A stretch of DNA of 64,000 nucleotides from a virus (Duplodnaviria > Caudoviricetes): IMG/VR virus record IMGVR_UViG_3300021093_000004; one strand, 5' to 3'. Numbering within the stretch: position 1 is the first letter of the stretch; each line of letters starts with the position of its first letter. The notes beneath the pieces were generated by a model. The model did no database searches, was not told the DNA's origin, and worked only from the letters and a program-made list of their open reading frames with translations. Shown in pieces: positions 4,676-60,631 of this stretch. The translations under genes and the position numbers were made by a program.

Positions 4676-5986
4676 ATGTTGCACCACCATGTAGTTCGAA
4701 ATTCGAAACCAAATGTGATTATTATAATCACCGACCAGCAGCGTTTCGATGCTGTTGGCTATGTTAATCCAAATATTATTACTCCGAATCTTAATAAATT
4801 AGCCAGCGAATCCGTGATTTGTGCAGAAGCATTTGTACAAAGCCCCCAATGTCAGCCGAGCAGAGCATCAATATTGACTGGTCGTTATCCCACCGCTCAT
4901 CGAGTGTGGTGGAATGAAACCAAACTGGCTCCAACTGAATTGACTATTGGGAACTATTTCGAGGCGGCTGGATATTCAACTGGATATTTTGGTAAATTGC
5001 ATATTGATGGAGATTCAGATTATACATCGGTTGCGAAGCACTTTGGATTCCGACATACGTTTCTGTCCGAAGATTGGCAGCTAATGGCTACCGGCAAACT
5101 ATTGCAGACCGGAAAATCGATTCCTAACAGAATCAGAGAAGAATTCTTCGGGCCGATGGCGACCAAAACGTGGGTTGGTCAGTTAAGTAATCGATCTCTG
5201 CATCATGAAGATATGATTACAACAAAGGCCGTGGAATTTATCCAGTCTCAAACTGAGCCGTACTTAGCAGTCATTAGTTATAATGGGCCACATCCTCCAT
5301 ATGCGGCTCCGACAGAATTTAGTCAACTCTACGATCCATCGACTCTTTCGGTACCAAAAGAGCGGGTCCCAAATTTAATGGGCCATGTATTATCGTCATC
5401 CGAATGGCGTGAATTAAAACGCCAATATTATGGAGCCGTGTCTTGGATTGATGATAATGTTGGACGTATCTTGAGCATTGACCAGTCAGCGATTGTGGTC
5501 TTTCTATCGGATCATGGTGATATTTTAGGTGATCATGGCCTATTTTCTAAGGGGATCTTTGCTTACGATGGTAATATTAGAATTCCATTATTATTTAAAA
5601 TCCCTGGCGTAAACCCGTCTGATTACCGGCATTTGGTACAGACTATTGATATACTTCCAACATTACTACATGCTGTCGGGGTCGGAGGAACACCCGGAAT
5701 TCAAGGAAAATCGTTATTGGAGCATTTTAAGTCAGATACGGCTGCTAATAATTATGTGATTAGTATGTTATGCCATAGTCAGCGGTTACGAATGATCCGC
5801 ACTAAATCTTGGAAATATTGGGTTCATGGGGCTAGAGAGTTCCTCTATGATCTACAGAACGATCCGTCTGAGGAGCGGAACATAGCCCATTCAGGGAAAC
5901 ATGCTTTACATGCAGCTAGGTATGGTTTGCTGCAAGCACTCATACACTGTGAAGATCCGTTGCCGCTTCCGCGACCGGTTTATTGA
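4676..5986 (+). CDS. formylglycine-dependent sulfatase
   Basis: KPNVIIIITDQQR, CQPSRASILTG (CxPxR), GYFGKLH, PHPPY, SDHG motifs. Confidence 0.92.
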   Translation: MLHHHVVRNSKPNVIIIITDQQRFDAVGYVNPNIITPNLNKLASESVICAEAFVQSPQCQPSRASILTGRYPTAHRVWWNETKLAPTELTIGNYFEAAGYSTGYFGKLHIDGDSDYTSVAKHFGFRHTFLSEDWQLMATGKLLQTGKSIPNRIREEFFGPMATKTWVGQLSNRSLHHEDMITTKAVEFIQSQTEPYLAVISYNGPHPPYAAPTEFSQLYDPSTLSVPKERVPNLMGHVLSSSEWRELKRQYYGAVSWIDDNVGRILSIDQSAIVVFLSDHGDILGDHGLFSKGIFAYDGNIRIPLLFKIPGVNPSDYRHLVQTIDILPTLLHAVGVGGTPGIQGKSLLEHFKSDTAANNYVISMLCHSQRLRMIRTKSWKYWVHGAREFLYDLQNDPSEERNIAHSGKHALHAARYGLLQALIHCEDPLPLPRPVY

Positions 5987-6549
5987 CCGGTCGAACCAAA
6001 ACCACCTTCTCCGCGTTTGGTTTCGCTGACTTTGGCTTCTTTTACGATTGCTTGATAACAGGGTGCTAGTACACCCTGCACGATCCGTTGACCATGTTCG
6101 ATGGTGATTGGTTCAATATTTCGATTAAACACACATGCGAACACTTCACCACGGTAGTCAGAATCAATGATTCCGACTGAGTTTGCGAGCATAAGACCTC
6201 TGGCTCCCATGGATGATCGCATAAAAAGTTGGAGTACAAAGCCGGGGTTGAACTCGCATTTGTACCCAAGGGATATCATTACTGTTTCATTGCATGTCAA
6301 GATCAACTTGGGTTTAGATTGTCCCGGTTCACTACGGTGTGAGACACCTGCGTGTTGTGACGGAGCTTTGGAAACCCGCGATCCGGCGTCGGTGGCATAG
6401 AAATGAGCTTTGTCACCATGTGAGTCTACGTGCATACATGGACGAGTAAGGCACGCTGAAAAATCGATCCCGGCAGAATGTTCTGTCCCGTATGTGGGAG
6501 TGTTTAAATCGTTCTCCGGAAACGGTTCCAATATTAACCACACTGTCAT
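5980..6549 (-). CDS. dut: trimeric dUTPase with an insertion after motif I
   Basis: SAGIDF, RSSMG, GIIDSDYRGE, QRIVQG, RGEGGFGSTG. Confidence 0.93.
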   Translation of the reverse strand: MTVWLILEPFPENDLNTPTYGTEHSAGIDFSACLTRPCMHVDSHGDKAHFYATDAGSRVSKAPSQHAGVSHRSEPGQSKPKLILTCNETVMISLGYKCEFNPGFVLQLFMRSSMGARGLMLANSVGIIDSDYRGEVFACVFNRNIEPITIEHGQRIVQGVLAPCYQAIVKEAKVSETKRGEGGFGSTGQ

Positions 6550-6599
6550 ATCACCCTCTTTAGGAGAGCATTTTGATACACATACCATAATTAGGCGAC

Positions 6600-7650: not shown

Positions 7651-8203
7651 TTTCACTGAGTATGTTCGGGGGCTGGGAAGGTTGTAATCTGTTGCCCATA
7701 TGACCATTTCGGATCAATCTCCTCGCTTCTACGGCAAGTATGTCGCATCGTTCGTTCAATTCATGTCCGGAATGGCCACGAATCCATCGCATCTTTATAC
7801 TCTTTTGAATTCTGACTAGTTCGTCGATCTCTTGCCATAAATCGATGTTTTGGAGTTCGCCTTCTTTCCTTCTCCACCCTTTTTGTTTCCATCCAACCAT
7901 CCAACCGTAATTGCCAAATCGAGGTTCGCCGCCTAGCCATTCTCCGATGCTGTTGACAACATACTTGCTGTCTGAGTAAACTGTAACATCGCAGGGACGT
8001 TTGAGTAATTTAAGAGCTTCGATGACCCCGGTTAGCTCCATACGATTATTGGTAGTTGAGAGATGCCCTCCTGACATTTCTATCTCATGAATTCTATCTG
8101 GTAGCTGATATTGTAATATAGCTCCCCAACCTCCCGGTCCGGGATTCGGCTCGCAGGCCCCATCAGTATAAATCACGACTTCAGAGATAAGAGCATGCCT
8201 CAT
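7604..8203 (-). CDS. rnhA: ribonuclease HI
   Basis: YTDGACEPNPGPGGWG, TTNNRMEL, DSKYV, NIDLWQ, WIRGHSG..NERCD.LA. Confidence 0.95.
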   Translation of the reverse strand: MRHALISEVVIYTDGACEPNPGPGGWGAILQYQLPDRIHEIEMSGGHLSTTNNRMELTGVIEALKLLKRPCDVTVYSDSKYVVNSIGEWLGGEPRFGNYGWMVGWKQKGWRRKEGELQNIDLWQEIDELVRIQKSIKMRWIRGHSGHELNERCDILAVEARRLIRNGHMGNRLQPSQPPNILSENESGAGVREHSQGIQ

Positions 8204-28000: not shown

Positions 28001-30015
28001 GGACCGCTCGGAATATAAACCTTTCCATCAGTCCAGACTCCACCACTCCATGCACCAACGTTTTCATCGAATGAATCAAACGACAGGCGGTCAAAACCCA
28101 ACTGACAAACACCAGTCAAATCACACAGCAAAACACTGCGAATACGAGCGGCACCAGAAAGTGCCCCGGATTTGAAGAAAACAGTAACACTTGTGGTTGG
28201 AACGGTGAATGATTGAAAGACATTGTGTGGGAATTCTATTGCACTGTTTGTGAGTGTTCCTGTTAATATTATATTACCAACAGCATCTCGAATACCATAA
28301 ACGAGTTCCAGTTCACCGATAGTGTCTGGTTCATGAGATAATAGTGTAAATCCAAATGTCATCGACCGTCCGACAATCAATCCACTTACTGATTGACGAG
28401 CCTCGGATGCTCCCGACAGACTGACGATTAAAGCATCGTTACCGCTGTCCCACCACTTTGGATCATTTGGTGGAATAAGTGCGTTTCCGGACGCATCAGA
28501 CCAAAATTCGACGCCTTCGGCGAACTGCGGGTTCTGAATTGAGTTGCGAGTTCCCGGACCACAATCTGTGACAGGAATCAGACACAATCTCACGTTGTCG
28601 ATAAAAGTATGAGATGTTGATTCAAATGATACTGTAATAATCCCACTACTTGGGACATTCATGTTGATACTTAGTCTGACAGCATCTGAATTTGCTGGTA
28701 CAGAATAAGTCTCACTTGCGCCATCCACGAACCCATAGGTTAACACACCAGCCACTGTTCCGCCGAGAACATCAAAAAACATCGTGATAAAATCACCAGG
28801 AGTCAGCCCGGACACGGTTTGCCGGGCAATCGGGTTTGGTCCACCCTCATTGATTTGTAATTCTAACGCCTTCTTCACACTATCCCACGAGACTGCCGGT
28901 TGGTGCTCGGTCCAACCAGCGATATCGGTATTAAATTCGCCGTTGAGAATAATGTCTTCGCCGCCCAAACATTCCGGCGGCGGTGCGACCGTGCCACATA
29001 ATGCGAAAATGTATGAATATACTAATTCTGCTAACCCTAGACCGCTATTGGGAGTTGCAACATAAATGCCACCAGTTCTACGGGCAATTTCTTGCAGATT
29101 CGAGGCAACGTCCGGAGTACTAGGTGGTGTTGCGGCGGCTATAATCTTGATGCCGCAAGATGCGGCAGCCGATGCAGCGTCGAATAGTCGCTGTCGGTCT
29201 TCTGCATCATACCTATCATTACACCCCGCAACACTAGCGTCTGTAATGAATAGTATGACCTTCACGGCTGCGGGATCGTCTCTCCATGGACCAAACCCAG
29301 TCCCATCGACGGCTTGCACCATTGCAACATCGCCTGCCTCTGGCATTCCCCTCCCACCACCGGCCCTAACTGTGGACAAAGATGCTTTAAATGCAGCAAT
29401 ATTTCCACACGCAGCAGATCCTCCTGGACCTGCGGCTGGAAACTTTACTAATGATTGGATTCCTGGTATACCATCACAGTCACCGAATGTTATTAGCCCC
29501 ATTCGATAATTGCCACCACTAATCGTCTCGAAATATCCGGCTATTGTGTCTACGGCGGCTCTTACCGCTTCGATCGCTCCGCCCATACTACCAGTTATAT
29601 CGAGTACAACTCCGAAATCAATCAGACAGTCGGTGACTGGTTCCTCGCACACCACATCACCGATTGCACATCCGATCGTACTCGAACCCGCAAATGGGTT
29701 TAGTAATAATGATCTGAATTCTGCTGAGATACGTTCAGCTTTGTAGGAATCTGCTGACTTTTGTGGACCGGTCAGGTCATACTTCTGTGGTATTCCGGAC
29801 CTTCTGATCGGAGTTATGACCCCTTGTTTTCTGGCTGGTGGAACATATCGTGGTTCTCTACCGAAAGCCAACGAACTGAGAGCTTGTTCGACATTTGGTG
29901 TCGGACCAAGAATCGCTATTTCTTTTCGTTCTTGAATGGATATAAGCTCGACATAGGTCGGTTGCCCGACCTCTGCACTGAGCCTTTTGACATTACTGAA
30001 TGGGTCTGTGGTCAT
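25054..30015 (-). CDS. giant (1653 aa) vWA-domain virion/adhesin-like protein with CBM-like and beta-rich repeats
   Basis: MIDAS DFGVVLDITGSMG...FITDA; three NGEF/NPQF..W-type repeats; four NExQxI...GTF.L...T..I.WNA repeats. Confidence 0.8.
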   Translation of the reverse strand: MTTDPFSNVKRLSAEVGQPTYVELISIQERKEIAILGPTPNVEQALSSLAFGREPRYVPPARKQGVITPIRRSGIPQKYDLTGPQKSADSYKAERISAEFRSLLLNPFAGSSTIGCAIGDVVCEEPVTDCLIDFGVVLDITGSMGGAIEAVRAAVDTIAGYFETISGGNYRMGLITFGDCDGIPGIQSLVKFPAAGPGGSAACGNIAAFKASLSTVRAGGGRGMPEAGDVAMVQAVDGTGFGPWRDDPAAVKVILFITDASVAGCNDRYDAEDRQRLFDAASAAASCGIKIIAAATPPSTPDVASNLQEIARRTGGIYVATPNSGLGLAELVYSYIFALCGTVAPPPECLGGEDIILNGEFNTDIAGWTEHQPAVSWDSVKKALELQINEGGPNPIARQTVSGLTPGDFITMFFDVLGGTVAGVLTYGFVDGASETYSVPANSDAVRLSINMNVPSSGIITVSFESTSHTFIDNVRLCLIPVTDCGPGTRNSIQNPQFAEGVEFWSDASGNALIPPNDPKWWDSGNDALIVSLSGASEARQSVSGLIVGRSMTFGFTLLSHEPDTIGELELVYGIRDAVGNIILTGTLTNSAIEFPHNVFQSFTVPTTSVTVFFKSGALSGAARIRSVLLCDLTGVCQLGFDRLSFDSFDENVGAWSGGVWTDGKVYIPSGPGLTRTYSAIKPASAFQITIEVLDNKGVIIELASGTATDQFTSPLAPGLYTHSCVVQDTGLVHVTIKSQAASGDGTVVDNILVCKSDPPVCDGSITKLTTKIEWKGIPRRPVNIFNMFARITLRDPSDPLVRTVVNLIPTADGHLGAVAPTSCGTGSTCDFWKQQGNGGSAELSITDTNLTPSNIRAINSGNFASVATRDNWLWSIPANSVGTLQDALITTFPPESVGNVVESVEIFYLANQITPADIPPSSVCPGPFLCGPDPADEFDVVITYQNSLGLNREYRVTVARNSLYPQEVSFAGTPWDTISTLGNGLCGMSARWESVKFELDNTAGTGLDQCTDSLNFIATGNGNLIFSKFDIVSSATFFDPCDAEVIIEEIVKGVKDNEIQSIVLPVPSGGTWDLTVTIAGDSKTATIPWNAGADVVQIRIGRLSNVGHGNVAVTGTGTQSDPFVVEFVGDLGGTDIPLMAADGSFLTGTSSGVVETITNGTKNERQTITVTPGTLFDLIVEFNGVTSIPITYNWSLNQKQGAFWGISTIGDGNVSVTGGTSDRDSPYTGDLAVDFVGTLANNNVPEMTVQPTPNYSVATNWQGGTGVNEKQRIRVMAASGTFTIKFYSPDDLSGATFFITAPLPYNASDAQVKAGLVASGFVTNSDVTVTKSPADPLEPLLNEWTVEFVGSRAATGIRQMEVDSSQLRGGPIAITGVTDGGSSFEKQRVTIKRANGGYFRLKLNINDIIQTSSKITWNTTAAGMQQILEQHPEINPGDIRVVQNANGPDPDVTSRFTVTFKRFGDIPMMIPSFERSLLCDPIVLVPVPPPPYPYPIEPECEIEDLSCQSGPLLSRPCPGDDPLPDELCCDELTVRESANVAVGFLIQRDLFDPNQKTSPRNGTSRKMTIKDITRIKGLDPAKFTPYLRNFTTGRLTETTYSKELMTGLSIILIEKHLDTTRGRSRITSYFASHREILPTRMVWPDGIIATLN

Positions 30016-31229: not shown

Positions 31230-32012
31230 TTAGATAGCGTCAAGGGCTTCGAAAGCCGTCTTGAACGTTTCGGATCTAGTTAAAGCACTTCCGTGCTTTC
31301 TTCCAAGTGCTGGCTCAAGGAAATACCAACCACCGAAATTCGTGGTGTTGGCATCATTCAAAGTAGCCTGAATTTTGGTATCACCAAACCCTATCGGCTT
31401 ATGCCCATGACCAATCTTAAAATCGTGAATATCTATCGCTCCGACATATTGTTTCAATAATGTCCAATATCTGATGAATGGGTCTTGCGATTGTCTAATG
31501 ATTAACTGGGCTGGGTCATATAATAATTTCCATCGCTTGAATTTGTTCAACCATTGAACAACATCCACTGGCCTATAAATAGAACTAGCGTGGGAAATCT
31601 CAAGCAGGGGTGTGATATTAGCAGAAATCGATCGTTCTGTGATCATATGAAGCCAATCGCGAACATGCTTGTCCGCGTCTGGAGCTTCTAACCCGGTATA
31701 GATTCTAATATAGGATGCCCCAAAGTACGAAGCAACATCAAATACTCGGTCGATTGACTCTTTCGGAATCGATGACAACGTGTTTGCGGGAACCTGTCCA
31801 AGTTCCGACGCAACCATAATGACGGTAAGCTCGTGCGACTTGAATAATGCCTTCAACGTCTGACACGATTGATCTGTAGCCGCACAAACATTGCTGGTCC
31901 ATACGTGTCGAAGAGCGAGGTACGGAATCCCAAGCGATTTTAATGTAGCACAGCCGGTTTCTGGATCTTCACCGGCCTCATCAAGATATGCTGCTAATTT
32001 TAATGGCCGCAT
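31230..32012 (-). CDS. xylose isomerase-like/AP endonuclease 2 TIM-barrel protein
   Basis: DE...D.E, YLALR.VW..NV, A..FGA.YIRIY, LLEI, YDPA, IDIHD, G.GD..I, EP motifs. Confidence 0.75.
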   Translation of the reverse strand: MRPLKLAAYLDEAGEDPETGCATLKSLGIPYLALRHVWTSNVCAATDQSCQTLKALFKSHELTVIMVASELGQVPANTLSSIPKESIDRVFDVASYFGASYIRIYTGLEAPDADKHVRDWLHMITERSISANITPLLEISHASSIYRPVDVVQWLNKFKRWKLLYDPAQLIIRQSQDPFIRYWTLLKQYVGAIDIHDFKIGHGHKPIGFGDTKIQATLNDANTTNFGGWYFLEPALGRKHGSALTRSETFKTAFEALDAI

Positions 32013-32015
32013 TTA

Positions 32016-33161
32016 TTACTCGACAAAGCATACGTGGTTGGTTTGGGGTCCGGTTCCTACTATAGTTACCGGCAGACCAACCAAATCTTCAATGTCAAGT
32101 ATGAAATCTTTCACCTTACTCGGTAGCTTGTTATAATCATTAGTCCCATAGCATGACCAATCGATATAGTTGGCAAAATTGAGGGCAATCTTCGTCGCCC
32201 CGTTCGCAGCCACGGCGTCCAGAAGTTGTAATTTGGAGAAAGTGAACACCCGACGAAGCCGCTTGGTGACAGTGGTCAATTCGCCCTTCATAACATCTGG
32301 TGGTGCACCACCGGCGGCAGCTACTTCGGCCCACGTAATTTCACTGTGGTCATCGTAACAATCACCGGAATATCCAACCGTATTGCCGTCTTCAATGACG
32401 TTTCCCACGCGGATCGGATATGGTCTTATTACCAGATAAATATCGCCGATGAGAGAATGTCCGATTCCCATATCGGCGACGTTCTGAACTGCGGTTGTTC
32501 CACGGCTGGTGCATTGTGGATAATGCGAACCGTGGTTGATATCGAGTGAGAACCCCTGTGATCCTTCATGCAGAGCGGTTTGCCCGTTTTGCAACAGGAA
32601 TTTCAGAATCCGTGGAATTGACAGGTTCTCGGTGTTGCCGAGCTTAACGGTGAGTTCGTTCATCCGGCCAACAAATTGTTGAAGCTCTGGATAATCGCGT
32701 GACAGCTTCAATTCCTTACGACGCATTACCTTGTCAGCAAGGAACGCCCCGCATCCTTGCATGGTGCTGGCGATGTGCTTTGTGCCGGTTTCGAGACTGG
32801 CTTCTTGCTGTTTGTGTGAGTCGAGAATGACTCCAGCACGTGGATGAATGTGGGTGTTCTCTTGAACTCCGCAGATCTCGATTTCTTTCAGCATTTGGGC
32901 CATGTCGTATGCCGATGACGCTCCTACGACGATGGCCGGTGAATAGTCTGTGCACCATTTCTTGAGAATTGCCGCCGATGGTAGTGCTTTAGCGACAAAA
33001 GCTTCTCCATCAATGTTGACCGCCGTATGTCCGGCGTTGCTCATGTTAGTTGTCGAGATTATTTCGGGTCGGTGTCTGTCTGCTAATGCAGTTGTGATAA
33101 GCCCTTTGCCGCAACTTCCCCACTGTCCATCAGTAACAACATTAAATCGGCCACTCAACAT
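32016..33161 (-). CDS. purZ: PurZ-clade N6-succino-2-amino-2'-deoxyadenylate synthase (adenylosuccinate synthetase superfamily)
   Basis: QWGSCGKG (Ser at the PurA catalytic Asp13 position), NAGHT, EGSQGFSL, YPQCTSR, RPYPIRVGN, SGDCYDD, TTVTKRLRRVFTFS, LNFANY in place of TKLD, VGTGP. Confidence 0.85.
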   Translation of the reverse strand: MLSGRFNVVTDGQWGSCGKGLITTALADRHRPEIISTTNMSNAGHTAVNIDGEAFVAKALPSAAILKKWCTDYSPAIVVGASSAYDMAQMLKEIEICGVQENTHIHPRAGVILDSHKQQEASLETGTKHIASTMQGCGAFLADKVMRRKELKLSRDYPELQQFVGRMNELTVKLGNTENLSIPRILKFLLQNGQTALHEGSQGFSLDINHGSHYPQCTSRGTTAVQNVADMGIGHSLIGDIYLVIRPYPIRVGNVIEDGNTVGYSGDCYDDHSEITWAEVAAAGGAPPDVMKGELTTVTKRLRRVFTFSKLQLLDAVAANGATKIALNFANYIDWSCYGTNDYNKLPSKVKDFILDIEDLVGLPVTIVGTGPQTNHVCFVE

Positions 33162-33236: not shown

Positions 33237-33623
33237 TTATCCGGTCGGTCGCAGGCGAGATGAAGTTGCGACATCATATCCATCGCCGTCCCACCCAGAA
33301 AGCTGAGCGGCGAAGTTCACTTCGTCGATCGTATCATTGCGATGTGCTCGTAATAGAGCTATAGCATCTGGCAAGTTCATAATTCTTACCAAGATGTCTT
33401 CAATATCACCATTTTCTGATCTGATAATCGATTGTACTGCAACTAAATTTCGCTGCTGAAGAAATCTTTTGATACGTTGAGCAGTTTGAATAGCGTGCAG
33501 TTCTCGTGCTATCCGGTCCAGCGACGCGGCTGTAGATTTTCGCTGTGCTTCTAACCATTCATCGCTTCTGGTTAGAAGATCAGCGTCATCGCCGATTTCA
33601 CTAATTAATGTCATTAGGCTCAT
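33237..33623 (-). CDS. hypothetical protein
   Basis: 128-aa ORF upstream of purZ. Confidence 0.6.
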   Translation of the reverse strand: MSLMTLISEIGDDADLLTRSDEWLEAQRKSTAASLDRIARELHAIQTAQRIKRFLQQRNLVAVQSIIRSENGDIEDILVRIMNLPDAIALLRAHRNDTIDEVNFAAQLSGWDGDGYDVATSSRLRPTG

Positions 33624-33957
33624 TGATTTTAACCCAGTGTTGTGGAACCCAAATTTTCCGACCCATGACTTCGATTCGGTAGAATAGTGGCTTCACGTCA
33701 CAAATGAGTGCAAATTCGTTGTACCATATATGTTCCGAATTGGTTACTTGAACCACATCTCCTATTTTTAATACCGCAAGACCATGTGGGTTTGTAATAT
33801 TTTCGGCTAGAGCCGCTTCTCCAGAAAATATCCCAACAGTGCCCAGATACCCACATACGGGGCACGTGACACACAACCCAGTAGGACCAACAACCACTTC
33901 GTTTGAATCAATCTCGAATGAAATGGAACAGTTCGGGCATATGAGATCTTTATGCAT
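33601..33957 (-). CDS. Zn-ribbon plus KOW/SH3-like small protein
   Basis: CPNC...CPVCG; LKIGDVVQV. Confidence 0.65.
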   Translation of the reverse strand: MHKDLICPNCSISFEIDSNEVVVGPTGLCVTCPVCGYLGTVGIFSGEAALAENITNPHGLAVLKIGDVVQVTNSEHIWYNEFALICDVKPLFYRIEVMGRKIWVPQHWVKINEPNDIN

Positions 33958-34648
33958 CGAGTAATTCTCGAAGCTGATCCGGCTGAGACTGAAATTCTTT
34001 GATAATAGTCTTGGCTTGAGCGAGATTAACTCCAAATCTCGAAGCATTGGGGCATGCTGCCACTGACTTCAAACTGGCGATATTCCCACAAACCTTAACC
34101 GGCACCTTGATGATATCACGAACATATTGGATTTGCCGATTATGCTCGTCTGGGTTGGCTTTGCTTACTTGAAGTTTGAGTAGAGTATCAGTACGAACTA
34201 ACGCCGGTGTCCTAACGGTTAATAGACCACGGCACATTGCCATGATGTTATCATCGTTTCGGAGCGAAGTTCCAAGAACAAATCGGACTTCCGTCGCATC
34301 TGACAGATGTTGTTTCACGAACTCTGTCAGTGCTTTGGATTCGATTCTCGTCTCTAATTCGAGCTTACTGGGAGTCAGCAAGAATTCGAAACCATCCGTT
34401 TCGAGAGAATCGGTTGTTAGACCCCGCATTTTGTTGACACCAAAGATCTCACCCTTCGGCCAATCAATTGGTGTGATGATCTTGAATTTGCCCCCAGCCC
34501 GACTCCTAGCAATGAGCGCGTCTGATGATAAACCCGGATGGACGACAATGGCCGGGAATTTATATTTATGAGCAAGTTCTATAGATTCTTGAATCTCGTT
34601 CACTTGCATTACATCGATTTCTAATCGATTGAATACTGACCCACTCAT
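33950..34648 (-). CDS. DeoC-like class I aldolase fold with Schiff-base Lys replaced by Arg
   Basis: AIVVHP, TPIDWPKG, LVRTDT (vs FVKTST), VKVCGNI (vs VKASGGI), ASRFGVN (vs ATRIGTS). Confidence 0.7.
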   Translation of the reverse strand: MSGSVFNRLEIDVMQVNEIQESIELAHKYKFPAIVVHPGLSSDALIARSRAGGKFKIITPIDWPKGEIFGVNKMRGLTTDSLETDGFEFLLTPSKLELETRIESKALTEFVKQHLSDATEVRFVLGTSLRNDDNIMAMCRGLLTVRTPALVRTDTLLKLQVSKANPDEHNRQIQYVRDIIKVPVKVCGNIASLKSVAACPNASRFGVNLAQAKTIIKEFQSQPDQLRELLDA

Positions 34649-35022
34649 GCTTTTAATTTCTCCAATGCGAACGTGAAAGCTTCATCAACCGACGAAAACC
34701 GAAACACGTTCGGTACAAAATAGAAGGTTTTCAATTCGGTAGTTGGCTCAAGGATCAGCACGACAGGCTTATTTGATACTATTGCTGCTCCGAGTTCAAC
34801 ATGAGTGCCACTCCTGGCCGGAGGTATCATGAAAAACAAATCGGCAGACGTAACACCATTTATTTCTGCGATTCCATATTGTTCCAATTCTGATTCAGAG
34901 AAAACTTGACCATGTGTGGTCCAATCATAAGATATTGATACACCGTGCCCACGAAATCGATCCATGACCGATTTTGCTTGATCTGAATTAAACAGGCTGG
35001 TTCCAACATATACGGTAGGCAT
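34645..35022 (-). CDS. nucleoside 2-deoxyribosyltransferase / dNMP N-glycosidase family protein
   Basis: VYVG, YDWT, GVTSADLF, GTHVELGAA...KPV (catalytic Glu present). Confidence 0.8.
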   Translation of the reverse strand: MPTVYVGTSLFNSDQAKSVMDRFRGHGVSISYDWTTHGQVFSESELEQYGIAEINGVTSADLFFMIPPARSGTHVELGAAIVSNKPVVLILEPTTELKTFYFVPNVFRFSSVDEAFTFALEKLKA

Positions 35023-35059: not shown

Positions 35060-36025
35060 TTATAATCTCTCAGCATGTGCAACAATTGTCGGCACAGATA
35101 TTTTATGGTCCATTTTGTTGAAGCGTTCTACGAAGTTCCATGGGTTTTCTGATGAACAGAACGTGAATTTTTGTCTTTCGCCCTCGTTGAGAACATCTGC
35201 CGCATAATCGTAAAATTCGGCTTCTTTCTGGAAACGTTCCCTTCGAACGTCTGGATTAACGTCTGGGTTGGTGCCATAGAAATGTAATTGCCCATTTAAC
35301 CCAGCTGGATTCATGTCGCAACCGAATATGTAAATGTGAGTATAACTCATCCAATACCCGAGTTGCATTGCTGCAAATACTGACGAACGCCCGATATGAA
35401 GCCCTTTTGTTAGGTCGCGGCTGAAGCCTTTGCCACCGAGATTCTTGACCTGCAATGAATTCTCTTTTTGCCGCTTGATTCCGGTACTATTGAAGATCAG
35501 GCCATTGTAACCGGCCCATAAATCTTCATGACGTCGCATTTGAGATTGGTCAAAGAATGCCCAGTGAGTTGTAGGCCAAATACGAGCGTCGGGCTTATTA
35601 ATCGACAATGTATGAATATTGGGATATCCTTTGAATTTCTCTAGTGGCACTTCGTTGATTGAAGGACCATTCCCAATTATAATTAAAATCTTGTTATAAC
35701 CATAATTCCTCAGTTGTTTGATTTTTACCAGCGAATCTGGGGTTATATCTCGACTGGTATATTTTACATTTGGTACCTTCTTGATGGCATTTTTGCGAGT
35801 TACGTGCTGTTTAGATACAGCCGCCGCCACCGGGATTTGTGGTGCGGGCTGAGATTGTTGGATTTTAACATGGACTCGGCGGTTGTTCAATTCATTGAGA
35901 TTTGCCGCCTGTCCGCTGGACGGCTTTACAACGATCTTTACAGACGACGAAGGGGTCTTAACGACTGTGCGTCTTCGCACCAGTTGTGGGCGAACCTTCA
36001 TTGTCACAATGTGATTGTTCGACAT
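35060..36025 (-). CDS. DUF115/Maf/MptE-like domain protein with basic N-terminal extension
   Basis: IIIGNGPSI, INK, SSVFAAMQL..WM....IYIFGCDM...HFY. Confidence 0.7.
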   Translation of the reverse strand: MSNNHIVTMKVRPQLVRRRTVVKTPSSSVKIVVKPSSGQAANLNELNNRRVHVKIQQSQPAPQIPVAAAVSKQHVTRKNAIKKVPNVKYTSRDITPDSLVKIKQLRNYGYNKILIIIGNGPSINEVPLEKFKGYPNIHTLSINKPDARIWPTTHWAFFDQSQMRRHEDLWAGYNGLIFNSTGIKRQKENSLQVKNLGGKGFSRDLTKGLHIGRSSVFAAMQLGYWMSYTHIYIFGCDMNPAGLNGQLHFYGTNPDVNPDVRRERFQKEAEFYDYAADVLNEGERQKFTFCSSENPWNFVERFNKMDHKISVPTIVAHAERL

Positions 36026-56619: not shown

Positions 56620-57080
56620 AATTCACCATCTTCTGCGATGTTGTTGTAAAGGACGAAGGTCAGGCCACTCAAATGGCGGGATGTGGTGTCGCCATTATCG
56701 CTGAAGAAGGTGCACGATCGAAAAAACGATCATACTCGTTCGGTCTTGGTGGTTCTGATACCGAACTATCTAATATCCAGGTTGTCAGGCTTGCATTAGC
56801 ATCGGTGCTGCCGCCGTTTCGCAAGTCTGAAGTTCTTCTGCATGTCACTGACAGAAGAGCGATCGATCTTTTGGCCCGGTCTGGGGCTGATTATAGTATA
56901 ACGCCTGACAAATATCAAGTCGAAATCGCTGAATTGCGAAAATGGTATAAGTATTATTCCAATATCACATTTATCCTTGATGCCAGTGCTGATAAAAATA
57001 TCATTGAAGCCCATGGTTTGGCAACTGCTGCTTGCCAGACTCAGAAGAATACTGATTCTAACACCATTGATATCTCGTAG
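56616..57080 (+). CDS. degenerate RNase H-fold protein
   Basis: FTIFCD...AGCGVAII...SFGLG; helix lacking the catalytic Glu; AHGLA near the C-terminus. Confidence 0.55.
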   Translation: MKFTIFCDVVVKDEGQATQMAGCGVAIIAEEGARSKKRSYSFGLGGSDTELSNIQVVRLALASVLPPFRKSEVLLHVTDRRAIDLLARSGADYSITPDKYQVEIAELRKWYKYYSNITFILDASADKNIIEAHGLATAACQTQKNTDSNTIDIS

Positions 57081-57129
57081 TGTTGAAATAGCGACATGAT
57101 TCGCTTTATCGAGATTGATTGAGGATTAA

Positions 57130-57900
57130 ATGTCTCTTGAAGTTAAATTGACTAGCATACGAGTTAATAAAAGTCGAAAGATTAATGATGTAGATGTAAA
57201 ACGAGACAGCGAAGAAATCTATAATATTGATGGAACAGAATACTCACTCGATGGTGCTGTAGAATATTTGTCATCCAAAAAATCGCATAATCCCGGCGAA
57301 ATCGCCTATTCAAAGACTGCGTTTTTGTTGGTAGAACCTCCTTCACGGGTAATCTCTGCGCATCAAGCCAAGAATCGGCAGGACCACAAGGCATTAATTG
57401 CCAAAGCGAATGTAAAAGGATTATATCTATATTATGCGGACGTGAAATGTAGAGATGGGAAATATTATGCCGTCAAACCATGGATAGTCGATTGGGAGAC
57501 CGTCCCTGAACACCCAGAAGAAATTGCGAAACGCGAGGCCCAACAGGAGAAAAAGAAGGCAAAGGAAGCAACAAAAGAGGTACCTGAAACGCCAGAACAA
57601 GACTCGCTTACATGCCCGTATTGCTCCAAACGTATGTCAAGTACATCTGGCTTGACGCTTCATATAAAATCCAAACATCCGGATAAATTAAACCAGCATC
57701 AAACAAGCACGATGCTGGATGAAGACGACGTGGTAAGTCGTGCGTCTGAAGTGGAAGAAGTCGGACAATCACAGAGTCTCGATAGTCTTCAATGTCCGTT
57801 TTGTGATAAAAAGATGACCAGCACTCCTGGCAGAACTCTGCATATTAAAAGCAAGCATCCAGAGCGATTAGCGGAATATTTGGAGATGGATCGTGACTGA
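57130..57900 (+). CDS. protein with two classical C2H2 zinc fingers
   Basis: C-x2-C-x12-H-x4-H at 57613-57678 and 57793-57858. Confidence 0.85.
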   Translation: MSLEVKLTSIRVNKSRKINDVDVKRDSEEIYNIDGTEYSLDGAVEYLSSKKSHNPGEIAYSKTAFLLVEPPSRVISAHQAKNRQDHKALIAKANVKGLYLYYADVKCRDGKYYAVKPWIVDWETVPEHPEEIAKREAQQEKKKAKEATKEVPETPEQDSLTCPYCSKRMSSTSGLTLHIKSKHPDKLNQHQTSTMLDEDDVVSRASEVEEVGQSQSLDSLQCPFCDKKMTSTPGRTLHIKSKHPERLAEYLEMDRD

Positions 57901-60631
57901 CACATGGGAACAGCTAGAATCACTTGCCCGATCCGCATTAGAGAAACGCGGACTGAATGGCGTGTATAGCGAACGTCTCGATTTCGAACTCAAAGAGATC
58001 GATAAGCAAGGTGCGAATGCTTATTGGCTTGCACTGGTGTCTGCTGATAAAAAGTTTAAGTCCAATCCGAGCATGCTGGTATTGCCATGGTTGTTGGGAA
58101 TGGTTCAAGATGACCCCATTGCCAATCGTAAGGAACCGATGCTGTGCAGTGTGCGTGCGTCGGTGGTCAAAGAGCATTTGCGAACGCACGGCAAAATCCC
58201 ATCGGATCTGATTAAAGATCAGGACATGCCGGATATTGACCTCGATTGCTTGCCGGAAGCACGAGACCCGATTAAAGAATATGCAATGGAGCAATATGGG
58301 GTCGGATTGAATGATGATGGTTACGGTCCTGTGTGTAGTGTCGGCACGTGGCAGACATATAAATTCAAATCGGCGATCATGGACGTGTCAAAAGCTCTGG
58401 AAGCTGTTGATCCGGCAAGAGTTTTCGAACTAACCAAGAAACTACCGGAAGACGTAGACAATCTTAAAGATGGCGGATATGCTGCGTGCAAGAACCGCGT
58501 TATCGATGGAATTACTAATCAAGAAAAAGAATGTGGGACAGTTCACGATCAAGCTGTGTGTCCGTCGTGTGGGTCATCGGACACTGATGCTCCCACTATT
58601 GGTAAGCTTTTGCAAGAACACGCTGATTTAGCTGCGTTCAATCGGCTTTTTCCAACAGTTATAGACTATGCAGTGAAACTAGTTGGGCGTATCCGAAATA
58701 TGGGTATGCACGCCGGGGCGTTGATTATCGCCGATCGAACGTTGTATGGCAATATTCCACTCGCGAAGAATAGCAATCGTGGATACTGGGTGTCGATGTG
58801 GACAGAAGGCAGAAATACTCAACTGTCGAAATTTGGATATTGCAAATGGGACGTTCTTGGATTAAAGACTCTTGAATATATCTTCAGATGCTCTCAGCTT
58901 ATTGAACAAAATCGCGGTATTACATTTGGTCCAAATGCCGAAGGCTGGGATGATATTGACCCTCTTCAAAATCGTGCGGGGCATTATTTTGATGGCTGTG
59001 GGAAAAAGTGCTACATCAATCTGAATGATCCACACGCTCTCAAACTTGCTAACGAGCAGAAGACTGATGCTGTTTTCCAATTTGATACCGATCTAGCCAA
59101 AAGTTTTTTGGCACACGGTGTCCGGCATTTTAATGACTTGATGTTGATAAACGCTATGGGCCACCCTGGGCCGATGGCATCGATTCCTGAAGCAATGCAA
59201 AATCGAGATGATAAGAAGGCATTGTGGAAACAGAAGCTTCATCCGGATATCTTGCAAGTTCTCGAAGACACTTATGGGGTTATTGTCTATCAAGAGCAGT
59301 TGCAGGCCATATGGCAACGCTTGGCTGGGTTCACCGCGCCGGAAGCTCAGGAAGCCCGGAAAGCTGTTGCTAAAAAATGGGCACATAAATTGAAGCCGAT
59401 TCGGGCTAAATGGATCGATGGTGCCTCGAAAACTCTTGGTCGTGCTGAAGCCGAATTATGGTGGACCAAGATGGAAACGTTCGGGCGATATGCATTCAAT
59501 AAATCTCACTCTGTGTCATATTGTTTAGTGGCTCTTCGCTGTTTATGGTTAAAGGCCCATTTCGCTCCGGAGTTTTGGGCTGCGGTGATGAGCGATTGTC
59601 ATCCGGATAAACTGGTTAGGTATATGAGTGTTGCTCGTGCCGAAGACTGGCACCCGACTGATATCACGTATTCCGGGCGTGCTCCGAAAGTGCGAGCCAA
59701 AGGCATCACATTTGGAACGTTGAACATTGATAATCTCACCGTCAATTATACTGTTACTGATGATATTGTCAATCAGGGACTCATTGGAATTAAAAAAGTC
59801 GGTGACAAAGCTGCTGAAGTATTCGCCGGTCGTGGTAATTGGACTAGCATCGATGAATTTGTTGAGTCGTCAGAAGGCAGACGAAATAAGACTGTTTTAG
59901 AGCGATTCATCAAACTTGGCGCGTTCGGTTCAATTAAGGGTCATGAAAATTCTCAAGCATTGTGGCAGTGGTACCAATACCAATATTGCTCTGGTGTGAC
60001 TGCATTGAGGACGGAAATTCGGCAGAAACTACTGGCCGAAGATGGTTGGAATGACAAGACCATCAATGAGGAACGGAATCGACAGATTGACGAATATAAG
60101 CGTCAATTTCCGAATCGTCGTAAAATTCCGCCTAAATTCAATAATTGGGTACCTAAGCCTGACGACACCCGCGAACGAGTAATGGCGTTGTATCGGGAAG
60201 ACTTTAGCCAAGCCGAGAAACTTGCGTTTCAGAAAGAATTTTTGGGCTATTATCTTGACTCACCTTTGGAATTGTTTGCTATTCGCGGTGGATGCACTAT
60301 CAAAGATGCAAAAGCTGCGTGCATTGCTGGTGCTGAAGATGCTCATCTTGAGGTCATGGTGGTTGACCAACAGTTTGCGACTACGAAACCGCGTGACGGT
60401 CGAAGTGGGTCACAATATGTCAAACTGACTGTGACAGATGGCATTCAACGAACCATGATATTTATATGGAATAATGAATTATCTTGTCAAGATCCTCAAA
60501 ATTTGGTCGAAGGTGCAGGCATCCGCATGCGAGTACGATACGACAAGCAGCGTGGCACATTCAGTATGTGTCATGGTTCGAATATAATTAGCTTACGTCG
60601 CTATCAAGAAGACGAAAATGCAACTACCTGA
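57893..60631 (+). CDS. dnaE: DNA polymerase III alpha, C-terminal part (catalytic PDxD through OB fold)
   Basis: MPDIDLD (58226-58246), GMHAGALII, KWDVLGLKTL, AVFQF, TYGVIVYQEQ, YAFNKSH, LKAHFAPEF, GLIGIKKVG, LGYYL. Confidence 0.93.
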   Translation: MTDTWEQLESLARSALEKRGLNGVYSERLDFELKEIDKQGANAYWLALVSADKKFKSNPSMLVLPWLLGMVQDDPIANRKEPMLCSVRASVVKEHLRTHGKIPSDLIKDQDMPDIDLDCLPEARDPIKEYAMEQYGVGLNDDGYGPVCSVGTWQTYKFKSAIMDVSKALEAVDPARVFELTKKLPEDVDNLKDGGYAACKNRVIDGITNQEKECGTVHDQAVCPSCGSSDTDAPTIGKLLQEHADLAAFNRLFPTVIDYAVKLVGRIRNMGMHAGALIIADRTLYGNIPLAKNSNRGYWVSMWTEGRNTQLSKFGYCKWDVLGLKTLEYIFRCSQLIEQNRGITFGPNAEGWDDIDPLQNRAGHYFDGCGKKCYINLNDPHALKLANEQKTDAVFQFDTDLAKSFLAHGVRHFNDLMLINAMGHPGPMASIPEAMQNRDDKKALWKQKLHPDILQVLEDTYGVIVYQEQLQAIWQRLAGFTAPEAQEARKAVAKKWAHKLKPIRAKWIDGASKTLGRAEAELWWTKMETFGRYAFNKSHSVSYCLVALRCLWLKAHFAPEFWAAVMSDCHPDKLVRYMSVARAEDWHPTDITYSGRAPKVRAKGITFGTLNIDNLTVNYTVTDDIVNQGLIGIKKVGDKAAEVFAGRGNWTSIDEFVESSEGRRNKTVLERFIKLGAFGSIKGHENSQALWQWYQYQYCSGVTALRTEIRQKLLAEDGWNDKTINEERNRQIDEYKRQFPNRRKIPPKFNNWVPKPDDTRERVMALYREDFSQAEKLAFQKEFLGYYLDSPLELFAIRGGCTIKDAKAACIAGAEDAHLEVMVVDQQFATTKPRDGRSGSQYVKLTVTDGIQRTMIFIWNNELSCQDPQNLVEGAGIRMRVRYDKQRGTFSMCHGSNIISLRRYQEDENATT

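What the first reader, a model, noticed from the sequence alone, without database searches (positions are those of the whole stretch)
32016..33161. PurZ-clade enzyme in a large phage with a family C replicase: possible new type of Z (2-aminoadenine) genome
Seen: Ser replaces the PurA catalytic Asp13 (GSCGKG), NFAN replaces the GTP-specifying TKLD (K331/D333), and CTSR, PIRVGN, SGxCYxD and RRVFTFS..Q...A...NG match the PurZ clade. Established: characterised PurZ enzymes make the dZTP precursor from dGMP, Asp and ATP, in roughly 40-50 kb phages that mostly use a family A DpoZ plus DatZ/MazZ. Unusual here: TTVTKRLRR keeps Arg at the PurA R303 position (Leu in PurZ as I recall), the polymerase seen is DnaE, and no HD-type DatZ or MazG-type gene is visible in this window. 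Inference: either a Z genome copied by a different replicase, or an intermediate PurA/PurZ enzyme (for example acting on GMP or IMP).
Basis: partly seen in the sequence, partly recalled or inferred. Interest (0 to 1): 0.92.

Follow-up and report, generated by a model that had tools for sequence, protein, structure and literature searches.

The report
PurZ gene in freshwater jumbo phage
A roughly 350-kb lake-water phage carries an intact enzyme of the kind small phages use to swap adenine for 2-aminoadenine (Z) in their DNA, but with a different polymerase and different helper genes, so giant phages may also use Z-DNA, though this is not yet shown chemically.

Summary
ORF 32016-33161(-) encodes a 381-aa adenylosuccinate-synthetase homologue with Ser for PurA Asp13 (GSCGKG), the ATP-type LNFANY pocket in place of TKLD, and the PurZ insertion after PIRVGN.

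A careful tree nests it inside the PurZ clade, and an AU test (p 5e-5) rejects a basal or intermediate position.

The gene defines a large metagenomic clade: over 1500 relatives, on contigs up to 438 kb, including one complete 355,825-bp relative. All checked members have a split DnaE and a short PolA-like gene. None has DatZ, MazG/MazZ, DUF550 or DUF5664, although the same searches find these beside PurZ in known Z phages.

PurZ instead sits in a conserved block with an NDT-superfamily N-glycosidase-like gene, a DERA-fold aldolase and a sugar-phosphate isomerase. The genome also encodes an adenosine-deaminase homologue, a dUTPase and a PurB-like lyase.

Best reading (about 0.55): a Z-DNA pathway variant with a new adenine-purging module and a family C replicase. 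No chemical evidence was available. This scan had already flagged PurZ in jumbo phages on other DNA.

The parts
32016..33161 (-). PurZ-type succino-amino-deoxyadenylate synthase homologue (381 aa)
   Evidence: Family matches. Motifs. Tree, AU test.
31230..32012 (-). Sugar-phosphate isomerase/epimerase-like TIM barrel (260 aa), 4 bp downstream of purZ and syntenic in all relatives
   Evidence: PF01261 at 1.7e-12. Atlas feature score 0.96 and TM 0.90 to the sugar phosphate isomerase/epimerase family. Synteny.
33237..33623 (-). Conserved 128-aa protein of unknown function between the DERA-like gene and purZ
   Evidence: No family hit. Present in 8 of 11 related loci.
33601..34047 (-). Zinc-ribbon protein (148 aa), variably conserved
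   Evidence: PF13717 at 3.7e-5, below the cut-off. Synteny.
33950..34648 (-). Deoxyribose-5-phosphate aldolase (DERA)-fold protein (232 aa)
   Evidence: AF2 model with pLDDT 87 and pTM 0.86. All top 50 Foldseek PDB hits are DERA, E 1e-11, TM 0.73-0.79. Atlas TM 0.75-0.79 to DeoC clusters. Lys158 and Lys185 are invariant. No sequence-level match.
34645..35022 (-). NDT-superfamily protein (125 aa), closest to nucleoside-monophosphate N-glycosidases
   Evidence: PF05014 at 1.7e-4, below the cut-off. Profile against PDB: BlsM 5vto 1.3e-5, CMP N-glycosidases 4jen/4jem. Tyr5 and Glu76 are invariant. Not BLAST-similar to Ghobes DmtZ.
35060..36025 (-). Conserved 321-aa protein with a faint MptE-like (PF01973) hit; upstream end of the syntenic block
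5980..6588 (-). dUTPase-family protein (202 aa) with a roughly 45-aa insert between motifs I and II; a possible but unproven DutZ-like dNTP pyrophosphatase
   Evidence: PF00692 at 2.3e-19. phrog_135 at 1e-46. TIGR00576 at 112.5 bits. 37% identity to the C-terminal part of Ghobes DutZ.
54623..56047 (+). DnaE N-terminal piece (PHP domain plus start of the pol III alpha domain)
57893..60631 (+). DnaE C-terminal piece (rest of pol III alpha, fingers, HhH)

Best explanation
The gene encodes a functional PurZ. It most likely condenses dGMP with aspartate, using ATP or dATP as phosphate donor, to give N6-succino-2-amino-2'-deoxyadenylate. A lyase then converts this to dZMP; here a phage PurB-like gene exists at G000:C1:154776-155825, otherwise the host PurB would serve. 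Kinases make dZTP.

The phage, a roughly 350-kb freshwater jumbo phage, then builds 2-aminoadenine into its DNA with its own split family C (DnaE) replicase.

The DatZ/MazZ/DUF550 helpers of small Z phages are absent. In their place, adenine deoxynucleotides are proposed to be removed by a different set of genes:
- the NDT-superfamily N-glycosidase-like protein, which would split a dNMP into base plus deoxyribose-5-phosphate;
- the adjacent DERA-fold aldolase and the sugar-phosphate isomerase, which would dispose of the sugar phosphate;
- an adenosine-deaminase homologue;
- possibly the dUTPase-family enzyme.

Shown here: sequence signatures, phylogenetic placement, conservation, synteny, and absence of the classical helpers. 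Inferred: substrates of every enzyme, Z in the virion DNA, and use of dZTP by DnaE.
For: 1. PurZ signatures align as expected: Ser16 for Asp13, the LNFANY ATP-type pocket, and the insertion after PIRVGN. PMC8342488 links that insertion to exclusion of the ribose 2'-OH.

2. The catalytic core is invariant across 44 diverse relatives: K19, H45, T133, R147, Q202, R303/R304, F329.

3. IQ-TREE (LG+C20) gives PurZ0+PurZ 100/99 and the PurZ clade 98/89. The query clade (100/95) and the characterised PurZ clade both lie inside a 98/92 clade. The AU test rejects the basal alternative at p 4.8e-5.

4. NCBIfam's best model for the protein is PurZ.

5. There are more than 1500 relatives, 54-84% identical on jumbo-phage contigs. 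Some carry LAGLIDADG inteins exactly in the NAGH|T and YPx|CTSR active-site motifs.

6. The MptE-like, NDT-like, DERA-fold, PurZ and TIM-barrel genes are syntenic in nearly all related loci examined (the NDT-like gene in 10 of 11, the DERA-fold gene in all 11).

7. Other branches of the same PurZ clade have different adenine- or dNTP-directed enzymes fused to purZ's flank. An adenosine deaminase overlaps the start of P0124, beside NDK, DnaB and a full-length DnaE. A 232-aa dUTPase-like gene directly follows P0141.

8. An ADA homologue is present in G000, G001, G002 and G003. A PurB-like lyase is present in G000.

9. GC-only 6-bp palindromes are almost eliminated (2 observed, 109 expected), far more than A/T-containing ones. 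Known Z phages show the same direction.

10. Bacillus phage vB_BpsS-140 is cultured, belongs to the PurZ clade, has a DnaE-like polymerase and lacks DatZ. It was reported uncut by DraI (PMC6483233) although its sequence has 21 TTTAAA sites.
Against: - There are no chemical or kinetic data on the DNA. Only Illumina-derived contigs are held for the 24 lake-water runs.
- The whole classical helper set is absent, even from the complete 355.8-kb relative.
- The NCBIfam PurZ score of 220 is below the cut-off of 300 and barely above the archaeal PurA model at 211.5.
- The NDT-like protein is not detectably related to DmtZ beyond the superfamily. Its nearest solved relatives act on CMP.
- The DERA assignment rests on fold only.
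- The PurB-like ORF lacks about 85 C-terminal residues and is absent from the relatives.
- Some A/T-containing palindromes are also strongly avoided: GGATCC 0 observed against 31 expected, CTCGAG 2 against 32. This shows the genome is not simply immune at A-containing sites, although confirmed Z phages show the same.
- No non-Z control genome was analysed.
- No family C polymerase is known to prefer dZTP.
Confidence: 0.55

Rival explanations
1. The enzyme is a true PurZ and makes dZ nucleotides, but the genome is only partly substituted or not substituted. Under this reading dZ nucleotides, or the drain on dGMP and dATP, serve another purpose: pool manipulation against the host, interference with host replication or defence, or a precursor for a further purine modification made by the neighbouring sugar-handling enzymes.
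For: No dedicated dATP triphosphohydrolase and no Z-selective family A polymerase was found. The neighbours are sugar-phosphate and possibly glycosyl-transfer enzymes: MptE-like, a GT2 at 50757-52181, and the TIM barrel. A/T-containing palindromes such as GGATCC and CTCGAG are still purged.
Against: In every characterised case PurZ goes with full A-to-Z replacement (PMC12884076, PMC8342488). S-2L manages with a non-selective PrimPol plus pool control (PMC8065100). Several adenine-directed enzymes co-occur with purZ in this clade. Confirmed Z phages also purge some A/T-containing palindromes.
Confidence: 0.25
2. The gene is a purine-salvage auxiliary gene with PurA-like chemistry, acting on IMP or dIMP or on GMP. 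Together with the PurB-like lyase and the adenosine-deaminase homologue it would form a phage-encoded purine nucleotide cycle that boosts adenine nucleotide supply.
For: A PurA-family gene, a PurB-like gene and an ADA-like gene co-occur in one genome. The C-terminal third resembles archaeal PurA more than phiVC8-type PurZ, and the best PDB hit is P. horikoshii PurA at 2.4e-39 against S-2L PurZ at 7.9e-38.
Against: Asp13, the catalytic base of PurA, is Ser in all 44 diverse relatives, while about 99% of true PurA keep Asp (PMC12884076). The GTP motif is replaced by the ATP-type NFxNY. The deoxy-selecting insertion is present. The protein is nested in the PurZ clade with strong support. Arg or Lys at that position occurs in accepted PurZ. 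The PurB-like gene is missing from the complete relative.
Confidence: 0.1
3. The conserved neighbours (NDT-like, DERA-fold, isomerase) have nothing to do with PurZ. They degrade or remodel another nucleotide, for example a cytidine or modified pyrimidine nucleotide as MilB and BlsM do, and merely share an early-gene block with purZ.
For: The nearest solved relatives of the NDT-like protein are CMP or hydroxymethyl-CMP N-glycosidases. It has no specific similarity to DmtZ. Jumbo-phage gene blocks are often syntenic without functional coupling.
Against: The order is kept down to 54% PurZ identity across 10 loci. NDT-family enzymes are independently associated with Z phages in two studies (PMC12884076; bioRxiv 10.1101/2025.10.22.683976). 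A DERA fold points to a deoxyribose-phosphate product.
Confidence: 0.3

Closest known systems
PurZ of Vibrio phage phiVC8 (PDB 6FM1), cyanophage S-2L (PDB 7ODX), Acinetobacter phage SH-Ab 15497 and Salmonella phage PMBT28
   Same: Same clade. Shares the Ser at Asp13, the NFxN/QY adenine pocket, the insertion after PIRV(G/A)N and the TTVTK..RR loop. 32-38% identity.
   Different: Keeps an archaeal-PurA-like C-terminal region (SCYGT...GTGP) and about 10 extra residues in the insertion. Sits in a roughly 350-kb phage with DnaE. No DatZ, MazZ, DUF550 or DpoZ nearby or anywhere in the genome.
PurZ0 systems of actinophages (Gordonia phage Ghobes, Arthrobacter phage Wayne) with DutZ and DmtZ (PMC12884076)
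   Same: The helper logic may be parallel: a dUTPase-family enzyme plus an NDT-superfamily enzyme in place of DatZ/MazZ.
   Different: The enzyme here is not PurZ0. It has the ATP-type pocket rather than LTMLDQV, and PurZ0 is a separate 100/100 clade. The NDT-like protein is not a DmtZ orthologue. The polymerase is DnaE, not DpoZ-1.
Archaeal short PurA (P. horikoshii, PDB 5K7X/2D7U)
   Same: Similar length, with overall similarity as high as to PurZ (2.4e-39). The C-terminal part is shared.
   Different: Archaeal PurA keeps GDEGKG and the GTP-type motif and lacks the insertion. It lies outside the PurZ0+PurZ clade.
PurZ-clade genes of the cultured phages Bacillus phage vB_BpsS-140 (55 kb) and Flavobacterium phage MaF61 (168 kb)
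   Same: They are the nearest named relatives: 37% identity for BpsS-140, and the same 15-row subclade for MaF61. BpsS-140 also has a split DnaE-like polymerase and no DatZ.
   Different: Neither has the NDT/DERA block beside purZ. MaF61 has a very long insertion and an HD_3 hit elsewhere in its genome. The DNA composition of both is untested as far as the searched literature shows.

Membership tests
PurZ (ATP-dependent succino-amino-deoxyadenylate synthase) | Ser in place of PurA catalytic Asp13 in the P-loop | tested here: met
   GSCGKG with Ser16. The Ser is invariant in 44 relatives.
PurZ (ATP-dependent succino-amino-deoxyadenylate synthase) | Adenine-nucleotide pocket (N-F-x-N/Q-Y; phiVC8 F295/Y298) replacing the GTP motif TKLD | tested here: met
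   LNFANY aligns with LNFCNY/LNFANY of known PurZ and with LTKLDV of E. coli PurA. Residue roles are taken from PMC8342488 and bioRxiv 10.1101/2025.10.22.683976.
PurZ (ATP-dependent succino-amino-deoxyadenylate synthase) | Insertion after the conserved Val (S-2L A242-W250) that disfavours a ribose 2'-OH | tested here: met
   PIRVGN is followed by an insertion homologous to that of SH-Ab 15497 and PMBT28 and about 10 residues longer. It is absent from PurA and shorter in PurZ0. The structural effect was not modelled.
PurZ (ATP-dependent succino-amino-deoxyadenylate synthase) | Phylogenetic position inside the PurZ clade, sister to PurZ0 | tested here: met
   (98/89 and 98/92 supports). The AU test gives p 4.8e-5 against the alternative.
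PurZ (ATP-dependent succino-amino-deoxyadenylate synthase) | Score above the curated cut-off of NCBIfam NF038379 | tested here: not met
   220 bits against a cut-off of 300. It is still the best-scoring model. The model was built from small-phage PurZ.
PurZ (ATP-dependent succino-amino-deoxyadenylate synthase) | Catalyses dGMP + Asp + ATP -> dSMP | not testable with these tools
   Needs an enzyme assay.
Z-genome gene cluster (PurZ + DatZ + MazZ/DUF550, often DpoZ) | HD-type dATPase DatZ and a (d)GTP/dATP pyrophosphatase in the genome | tested here: not met
   PF13023, PF12917, PF01966, PF03819, PF04447 and PF18909 gave no hit in G000 or G002-G005. G001, the complete relative, has only one unrelated HD protein. 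Positive controls were found in four known Z phages. tblastn of all their ORFs found only PurZ, dUTPase and generic replication genes.
Z-genome gene cluster (PurZ + DatZ + MazZ/DUF550, often DpoZ) | 2-aminoadenine replaces adenine in virion DNA | not testable with these tools
   Only assembled Illumina contigs are held. Palindrome statistics are compatible but not decisive.
PurA (adenylosuccinate synthetase) | Catalytic Asp13 and GTP-specifying (T/S)K(L/M)D motif | tested here: not met
   The residues are Ser16 and NFAN.
PurZ0 (GTP-dependent) | GTP-type pocket (LTMLDQV-like) and membership of the PurZ0 clade | tested here: not met
DmtZ (dAMP hydrolase / deoxyribose-5-phosphate transferase, NDT superfamily) | NDT catalytic Tyr and Glu nucleophile | tested here: met
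   Tyr5 and Glu76 (GSHxELG) are invariant in 9 orthologues.
DmtZ (dAMP hydrolase / deoxyribose-5-phosphate transferase, NDT superfamily) | Specific sequence relationship to DmtZ of Ghobes or Wayne | tested here: not met
   BLASTP E-values of 0.27-0.53. The nearest solved relatives are BlsM/MilB-type CMP N-glycosidases.
DERA (class I deoxyribose-5-phosphate aldolase) | DERA TIM-barrel fold | tested here: met
DERA (class I deoxyribose-5-phosphate aldolase) | Schiff-base Lys and second catalytic Lys at the DERA positions | tested here: inconclusive
   Invariant Lys158 (LKLQ) and Lys185 (IKVSGN) lie at positions close to K155/K184 of B. halodurans DERA. No residue-level structural alignment was obtained, and hhalign against E. 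coli DeoC was not significant.
DpoZ (Z-selective family A polymerase) | Full Pol I-type enzyme with 3'-5' exonuclease domain | tested here: not met
   The only family A gene is 435 aa. It matches only motifs A-C of the palm and fingers: PF00476 at 34.8 bits, Taq at 0.003.

The most novel reading that the evidence does not exclude
A large, widespread clade of roughly 230-440-kb environmental jumbo phages has fully 2-aminoadenine-substituted genomes. These would be replicated by a phage-encoded split family C (DnaE) polymerase. dATP would be excluded not by DatZ/MazZ but by a previously undescribed route: dNMP N-glycosidase, then DERA-type aldolase and sugar-phosphate isomerase, plus an adenosine-deaminase homologue. 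This would be a third, independently assembled solution to Z-DNA maintenance.
Probability: 0.35. Interest if true: 0.9.

Novelty: new variant of a known kind. Interest (0 to 1): 0.74.

Why it matters
Z-DNA has so far been tied to about 40-70-kb phages that use family A DpoZ or PrimPol polymerases and DatZ/MazZ or DutZ/DmtZ helpers. If these jumbo phages use Z, three things follow:
- The modification would be far more common in nature; hundreds of 50%-identity clusters are seen here.
- It would be compatible with a bacterial-type Pol III replisome.
- It would be supported by a new way of removing adenine deoxynucleotides.

Such enzymes (a Z-tolerant DnaE, a dAMP-directed N-glycosidase) are of direct interest for making Z-DNA in cells. 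The result also names two cultured phages, MaF61 and vB_BpsS-140, in which the question can be settled at the bench.

Tried and rejected
- **Intermediate PurA/PurZ enzyme.** Rejected by the tree and the AU test.
- **Arg301 as an unusual ribose-binding residue.** Rejected, because Lys or Arg occurs there in accepted PurZ.
- **Classical helper genes.** Searched with six Pfam models in six related records, and by tblastn of all ORFs of five PurZ phages. None was found, and positive controls worked.
- **NDT-like gene as a DmtZ orthologue.** Not supported.
- **Window dUTPase specifically related to DutZ or to the dUTPase beside P0141.** Only generic 29-37% identity, so undecided.
- **DERA at sequence level.** No Pfam, NCBIfam, PDB-profile or hhalign signal. 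Only the fold supports it.
- **Alignment-based scan of prokaryote genomes.** Failed twice because no stretch was conserved enough. It was replaced by a motif scan that recovered archaeal PurA.
- **'Relatives' search.** Not available for a virus record.
- **Direct test via native long reads.** All 24 runs holding the sequence are 2018 lake-water Illumina assemblies kept as contigs.
- **Palindrome avoidance.** GC-only sites are nearly absent, but some A/T-containing sites are purged too, as in confirmed Z phages. No non-Z control genome was analysed, so the test is not decisive.
- **Literature.** No paper in the library links PurZ with jumbo or huge phages or with DnaE.
Full report
**Observation**

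The ORF at 32016-33161 on the minus strand is real: 381 aa, with an ATG start. It belongs to the adenylosuccinate synthetase superfamily (PF00709, 2.7e-37). Its best phage family is phrog_1211, '2-aminooxy adenylosuccinate synthetase', that is PurZ (2.6e-62).

In NCBIfam the top model is NF038379, 'succino-amino-deoxyadenylate synthase PurZ', at 220 bits. This is below the curated cut-off of 300. It is followed closely by the archaeal-type PurA model PRK04293 (211.5 bits) and more distantly by bacterial purA (153.9 bits).

Against solved structures the protein is about equally close to P. horikoshii PurA (2.4e-39), S-2L PurZ 7ODX (7.9e-38) and phiVC8 PurZ 6FM1 (2.1e-36).

**Residues**

The protein was aligned with E. 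coli PurA, archaeal PurA, four PurZ0 and four PurZ sequences.

| Feature | This protein | PurA | PurZ0 | PurZ |
|---|---|---|---|---|
| P-loop | GSCGKG | GDEGKG | GSEAKG | GSTGKG |
| Nucleotide-base motif | LNFANY | LTKLDV or LTMLDK | LTMLDQ | LNF(C/A)NY |

- The insertion after PIRV(G/A)N is present and somewhat longer here. Czernecki et al. relate this insertion to steric exclusion of a ribose 2'-OH (PMC8342488).
The same column is Lys in the phiVC8-type enzyme, Leu in SH-Ab 15497 and PMBT28, and Arg in Burkholderia phage BCSR129. PMC8342488 equates phiVC8 K267 with PurA R303. The feature is therefore not unusual.
- Across 44 diverse relatives, Ser16 and the catalytic core are invariant: K19, H45, T133, R147, Q202, R303, R304, F329.

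**Phylogeny**

Archaeal and bacterial PurA sequences were recovered with a motif scan of prokaryote genomes. References came from annotated phage records.

A 200-row FastTree and an 88-row IQ-TREE with LG+C20+F+G4 agree on the following order and supports:
- Bacterial PurA, then archaeal short PurA.
- A pair of Streptomyces sequences that still carry Asp.
- A PurZ0+PurZ clade with 100/99 support. PurZ0 alone is 100/100, and the PurZ side is 98/89.
- Within PurZ, the query's 27-row clade (100/95) and the clade holding Vibrio phage H1, SH-Ab 15497, PMBT28 and BCSR129 (96/93) both sit inside a 98/92 clade. Bacillus phage vB_BpsS-140 branches outside that clade.

An AU test rejects a tree in which characterised PurZ and PurZ0 form one clade that excludes the query (delta lnL 102, p 4.8e-5). 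One caveat applies: the group was defined after the tree had been seen. On this evidence the protein is a PurZ-clade member, not an evolutionary or functional intermediate.

**Where it lives**

The window is part of a 157,281-bp IMG/VR virus record that CheckV estimates to be 43% complete.
- The protein has more than 1500 metagenomic relatives. The closest are 60-84% identical and lie on contigs up to 438 kb.
- 351 clusters at 50% identity score below 1e-30.
- Fourteen IMG/VR loci were fetched. One lies on a 355,825-bp genome with terminal repeats, rated 100% complete (G001).
- The sequence occurs in at least 24 lake-water metagenome runs from 2018.
- Several homologues carry LAGLIDADG inteins inserted exactly in NAGH|T and YPx|CTSR. 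This is typical of indispensable enzymes.

**Polymerases**

All five records checked have DnaE split into two genes. In the window these are 54623-56047 (PHP domain plus N-terminal part) and 57893-60631.

All five also have a short family A polymerase-like gene. It is 435 aa in G000, at C1:79609-80916, about 6.5 kb beyond the window's end. It matches only the palm and finger motifs and has no exonuclease domain, so it is not a DpoZ.

**Helpers**

HD_3, YfbR-like, HD, MazG, DUF550 and DUF5664 models find nothing in G000 or in G002-G005. The complete G001 yields only one unrelated HD protein.

The same searches find DatZ directly beside PurZ in Vibrio phage H1, SH-Ab 15497, PMBT28 and BCSR129. 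They find DUF550 in SH-Ab 15497 and PMBT28 over the family cut-off, with a weaker below-cut-off hit in BCSR129. The negative result is therefore meaningful.

A tblastn of every ORF of these phages against G000 and G001 returns only PurZ, dUTPase and generic replication genes. It also shows that vB_BpsS-140 has a split DnaE-like polymerase.

**The neighbourhood**

The gene order g303, MptE-like, NDT-like, 232-aa protein, (zinc ribbon), 128-aa protein, PurZ, TIM barrel, g74, g145 is kept in nearly all related loci down to 54% PurZ identity (one locus, L007, lacks the genes upstream of the 232-aa gene, and L011 shows no match downstream of purZ).

- **NDT-like protein (125 aa).** It keeps the superfamily's Tyr and Glu. 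As a profile it is closest to the nucleoside-monophosphate N-glycosidases BlsM and MilB (1e-5 to 1e-4). It has no specific similarity to DmtZ.
- **232-aa protein.** It has no sequence-level family. Its AlphaFold model (pLDDT 87, pTM 0.86) hits only deoxyribose-5-phosphate aldolases among the top 50 PDB matches (E 1e-11, TM 0.73-0.79). The Atlas gives the same answer. Two invariant lysines, K158 and K185, lie near the positions of the DERA catalytic lysines, but this mapping is inferred and not aligned.
- **Downstream gene.** It is a sugar-phosphate isomerase/epimerase-type TIM barrel.

An N-glycosidase followed by a DERA is what would be needed to destroy a deoxynucleoside monophosphate irreversibly. 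Two recent studies independently tie NDT-family enzymes to Z phages (PMC12884076; bioRxiv 10.1101/2025.10.22.683976).

**Elsewhere in the genome**

- An adenosine-deaminase homologue (326 aa, G000:C1:5853-6833, TIGR01430 at 118 bits, below the cut-off) is present in G000, G001, G002 and G003.
- A PurB-like lyase (349 aa, TIGR00928 at 275 bits, lacking about 85 C-terminal residues) lies at G000:C1:154776-155825. It is absent from the relatives.
- A dUTPase with a 45-aa insert lies at 5980-6588.

Other branches of the same PurZ clade show different partners pressed against purZ:
- a bona fide adenosine deaminase overlapping its start, beside NDK, DnaB and a full-length DnaE (P0124);
- a 232-aa dUTPase-like gene directly after it (P0141);
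- RNR, clamp-loader and ThyX genes on a 428-kb contig (P0129).

Recurrent pairing of purZ with different adenine- or dNTP-directed enzymes fits the 'functional convergence' picture of PMC12884076.

**Indirect look at the DNA**

Observed-to-expected ratios (O/E) for 6-bp palindromes, with Markov-expected counts:

| Genome | GC-only | Four G/C plus two A/T | A/T-rich |
|---|---|---|---|
| G000 | 0.02 (2 observed, 109 expected) | 0.65 | 0.91-0.92 |
| Vibrio phage H1, SH-Ab 15497, PMBT28 | 0.19-0.39 | 0.72-0.93 | 0.84-0.96 |

- In G000 the 4-mer GCGC is also strongly depleted: 36 observed against 317 expected.
- The three known PurZ-pathway phages in the table show the same ordering.
- Individual A/T-containing sites are also purged. 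GGATCC is 0 against 31 and CTCGAG is 2 against 32 in G000. CTCGAG is 0 against 23 in PMBT28.
- No non-Z control genome was run, so this is compatible with Z-DNA but not evidence for it.
- vB_BpsS-140 DNA was reported uncut by DraI but cut by EcoRI (PMC6483233). Its sequence holds 21 DraI sites. This is a lead, not a proof.

**Verdict**

The protein is a divergent but genuine member of the PurZ clade, with every sequence determinant of dGMP and ATP use that can be read from sequence.

The most likely function is dZ-nucleotide synthesis for a Z-containing genome replicated by a family C polymerase. A new, still hypothetical adenine-purging module would stand in for DatZ/MazZ. I put about 0.8 on PurZ chemistry and about 0.55 on the whole statement, including Z in the DNA. 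The 'intermediate enzyme' idea is rejected.

The kind of system is known. The host phage type, the polymerase and the helper set make this a new variant.

Earlier notes of this scan flagged PurZ in jumbo phages on other DNA (e1-5321892, e1-4369411, e1-5362403) and the same module idea on this stretch (e1-5362522, e1-5362513). They were used as leads only. No paper in the searched library reports PurZ in jumbo phages or together with DnaE.

Noticed in passing
window 52486-53880 (+): A 464-aa protein matches Pfam Volactin (PF25216, 6.9e-43), an actin-fold family described from archaea. It may be a phage cytoskeletal or segregation protein.
   Followed up: no
window 56077-57900 (+), between the two DnaE genes: Three small ORFs (180, 154 and 256 aa) separate the PHP/N-terminal and C-terminal DnaE pieces. 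They have no clear family. The split is conserved in all relatives checked, and G001 appears split further.
   Followed up: partly
homologues P0122, P0123, P0126, P0135, P0137, P0143, P0151, P0159, P0162, P0177, P0190, P0198, P0248: PurZ-like proteins of 734-1197 aa carry one or two LAGLIDADG inteins. These sit at two active-site positions, NAGH|T and YPx|CTSR; P0137 has both.
   Followed up: yes
whole record G000 (157 kb): Extreme avoidance of GC-only palindromes: GCGC 36 observed against 317 expected, and GC-only 6-mers 2 against 109. Several mixed sites are also avoided (GGATCC 0 against 31, CTCGAG 2 against 32, ACGCGT 0 against 19).
   Followed up: partly
L171:5934-7004 and 7001-8158 (contig of P0124): A bona fide adenosine deaminase (TIGR01430 at 255 bits, above the cut-off) overlaps the start of a PurZ-clade gene by 4 bp, in a block with RNR, NDK, DnaB and a full-length DnaE.
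   Followed up: partly
L173:7001-8789 (contig of P0141): A PurZ-clade gene is directly followed by a 232-aa dUTPase/dCTP-deaminase-like gene. This echoes the PurZ0-DutZ pairing, but on the PurZ side of the tree.
   Followed up: no
L116 and L146 (Streptomyces genomes): Two short PurA-like proteins that keep Asp (GDEAKG) branch as sister to the whole PurZ0+PurZ clade (98/91). They are possible bacterial relatives of the PurZ ancestor.
   Followed up: no
L048 (Flavobacterium phage MaF61, PQ858689, 118051-119394): A cultured 168-kb myovirus has a PurZ-clade gene (GSSGKG) with a very long insertion after the PIRI motif. It lies between the scaffold and terminase genes. An HD_3 hit lies 46 kb away.
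   Followed up: partly
L042 and L189-L191 (Bacillus phage vB_BpsS-140, MH884512): A cultured 55-kb siphovirus with a PurZ-clade gene, a split DnaE-like polymerase and no DatZ. Its DNA was reported resistant to DraI although the sequence has 21 TTTAAA sites.
   Followed up: partly
window 25054-30015 (-): A 1653-aa ORF just downstream of the block has no Pfam hit. It is conserved in part in five relatives and is likely a large structural or injected protein.
   Followed up: no
G001:C1:305502-305876 (+): The complete relative has one HD-domain protein (PF01966 at 43 bits; 196-aa open frame) next to its DnaE pieces. It is absent from the other records and is not of the DatZ (HD_3/YfbR) type.
   Followed up: no
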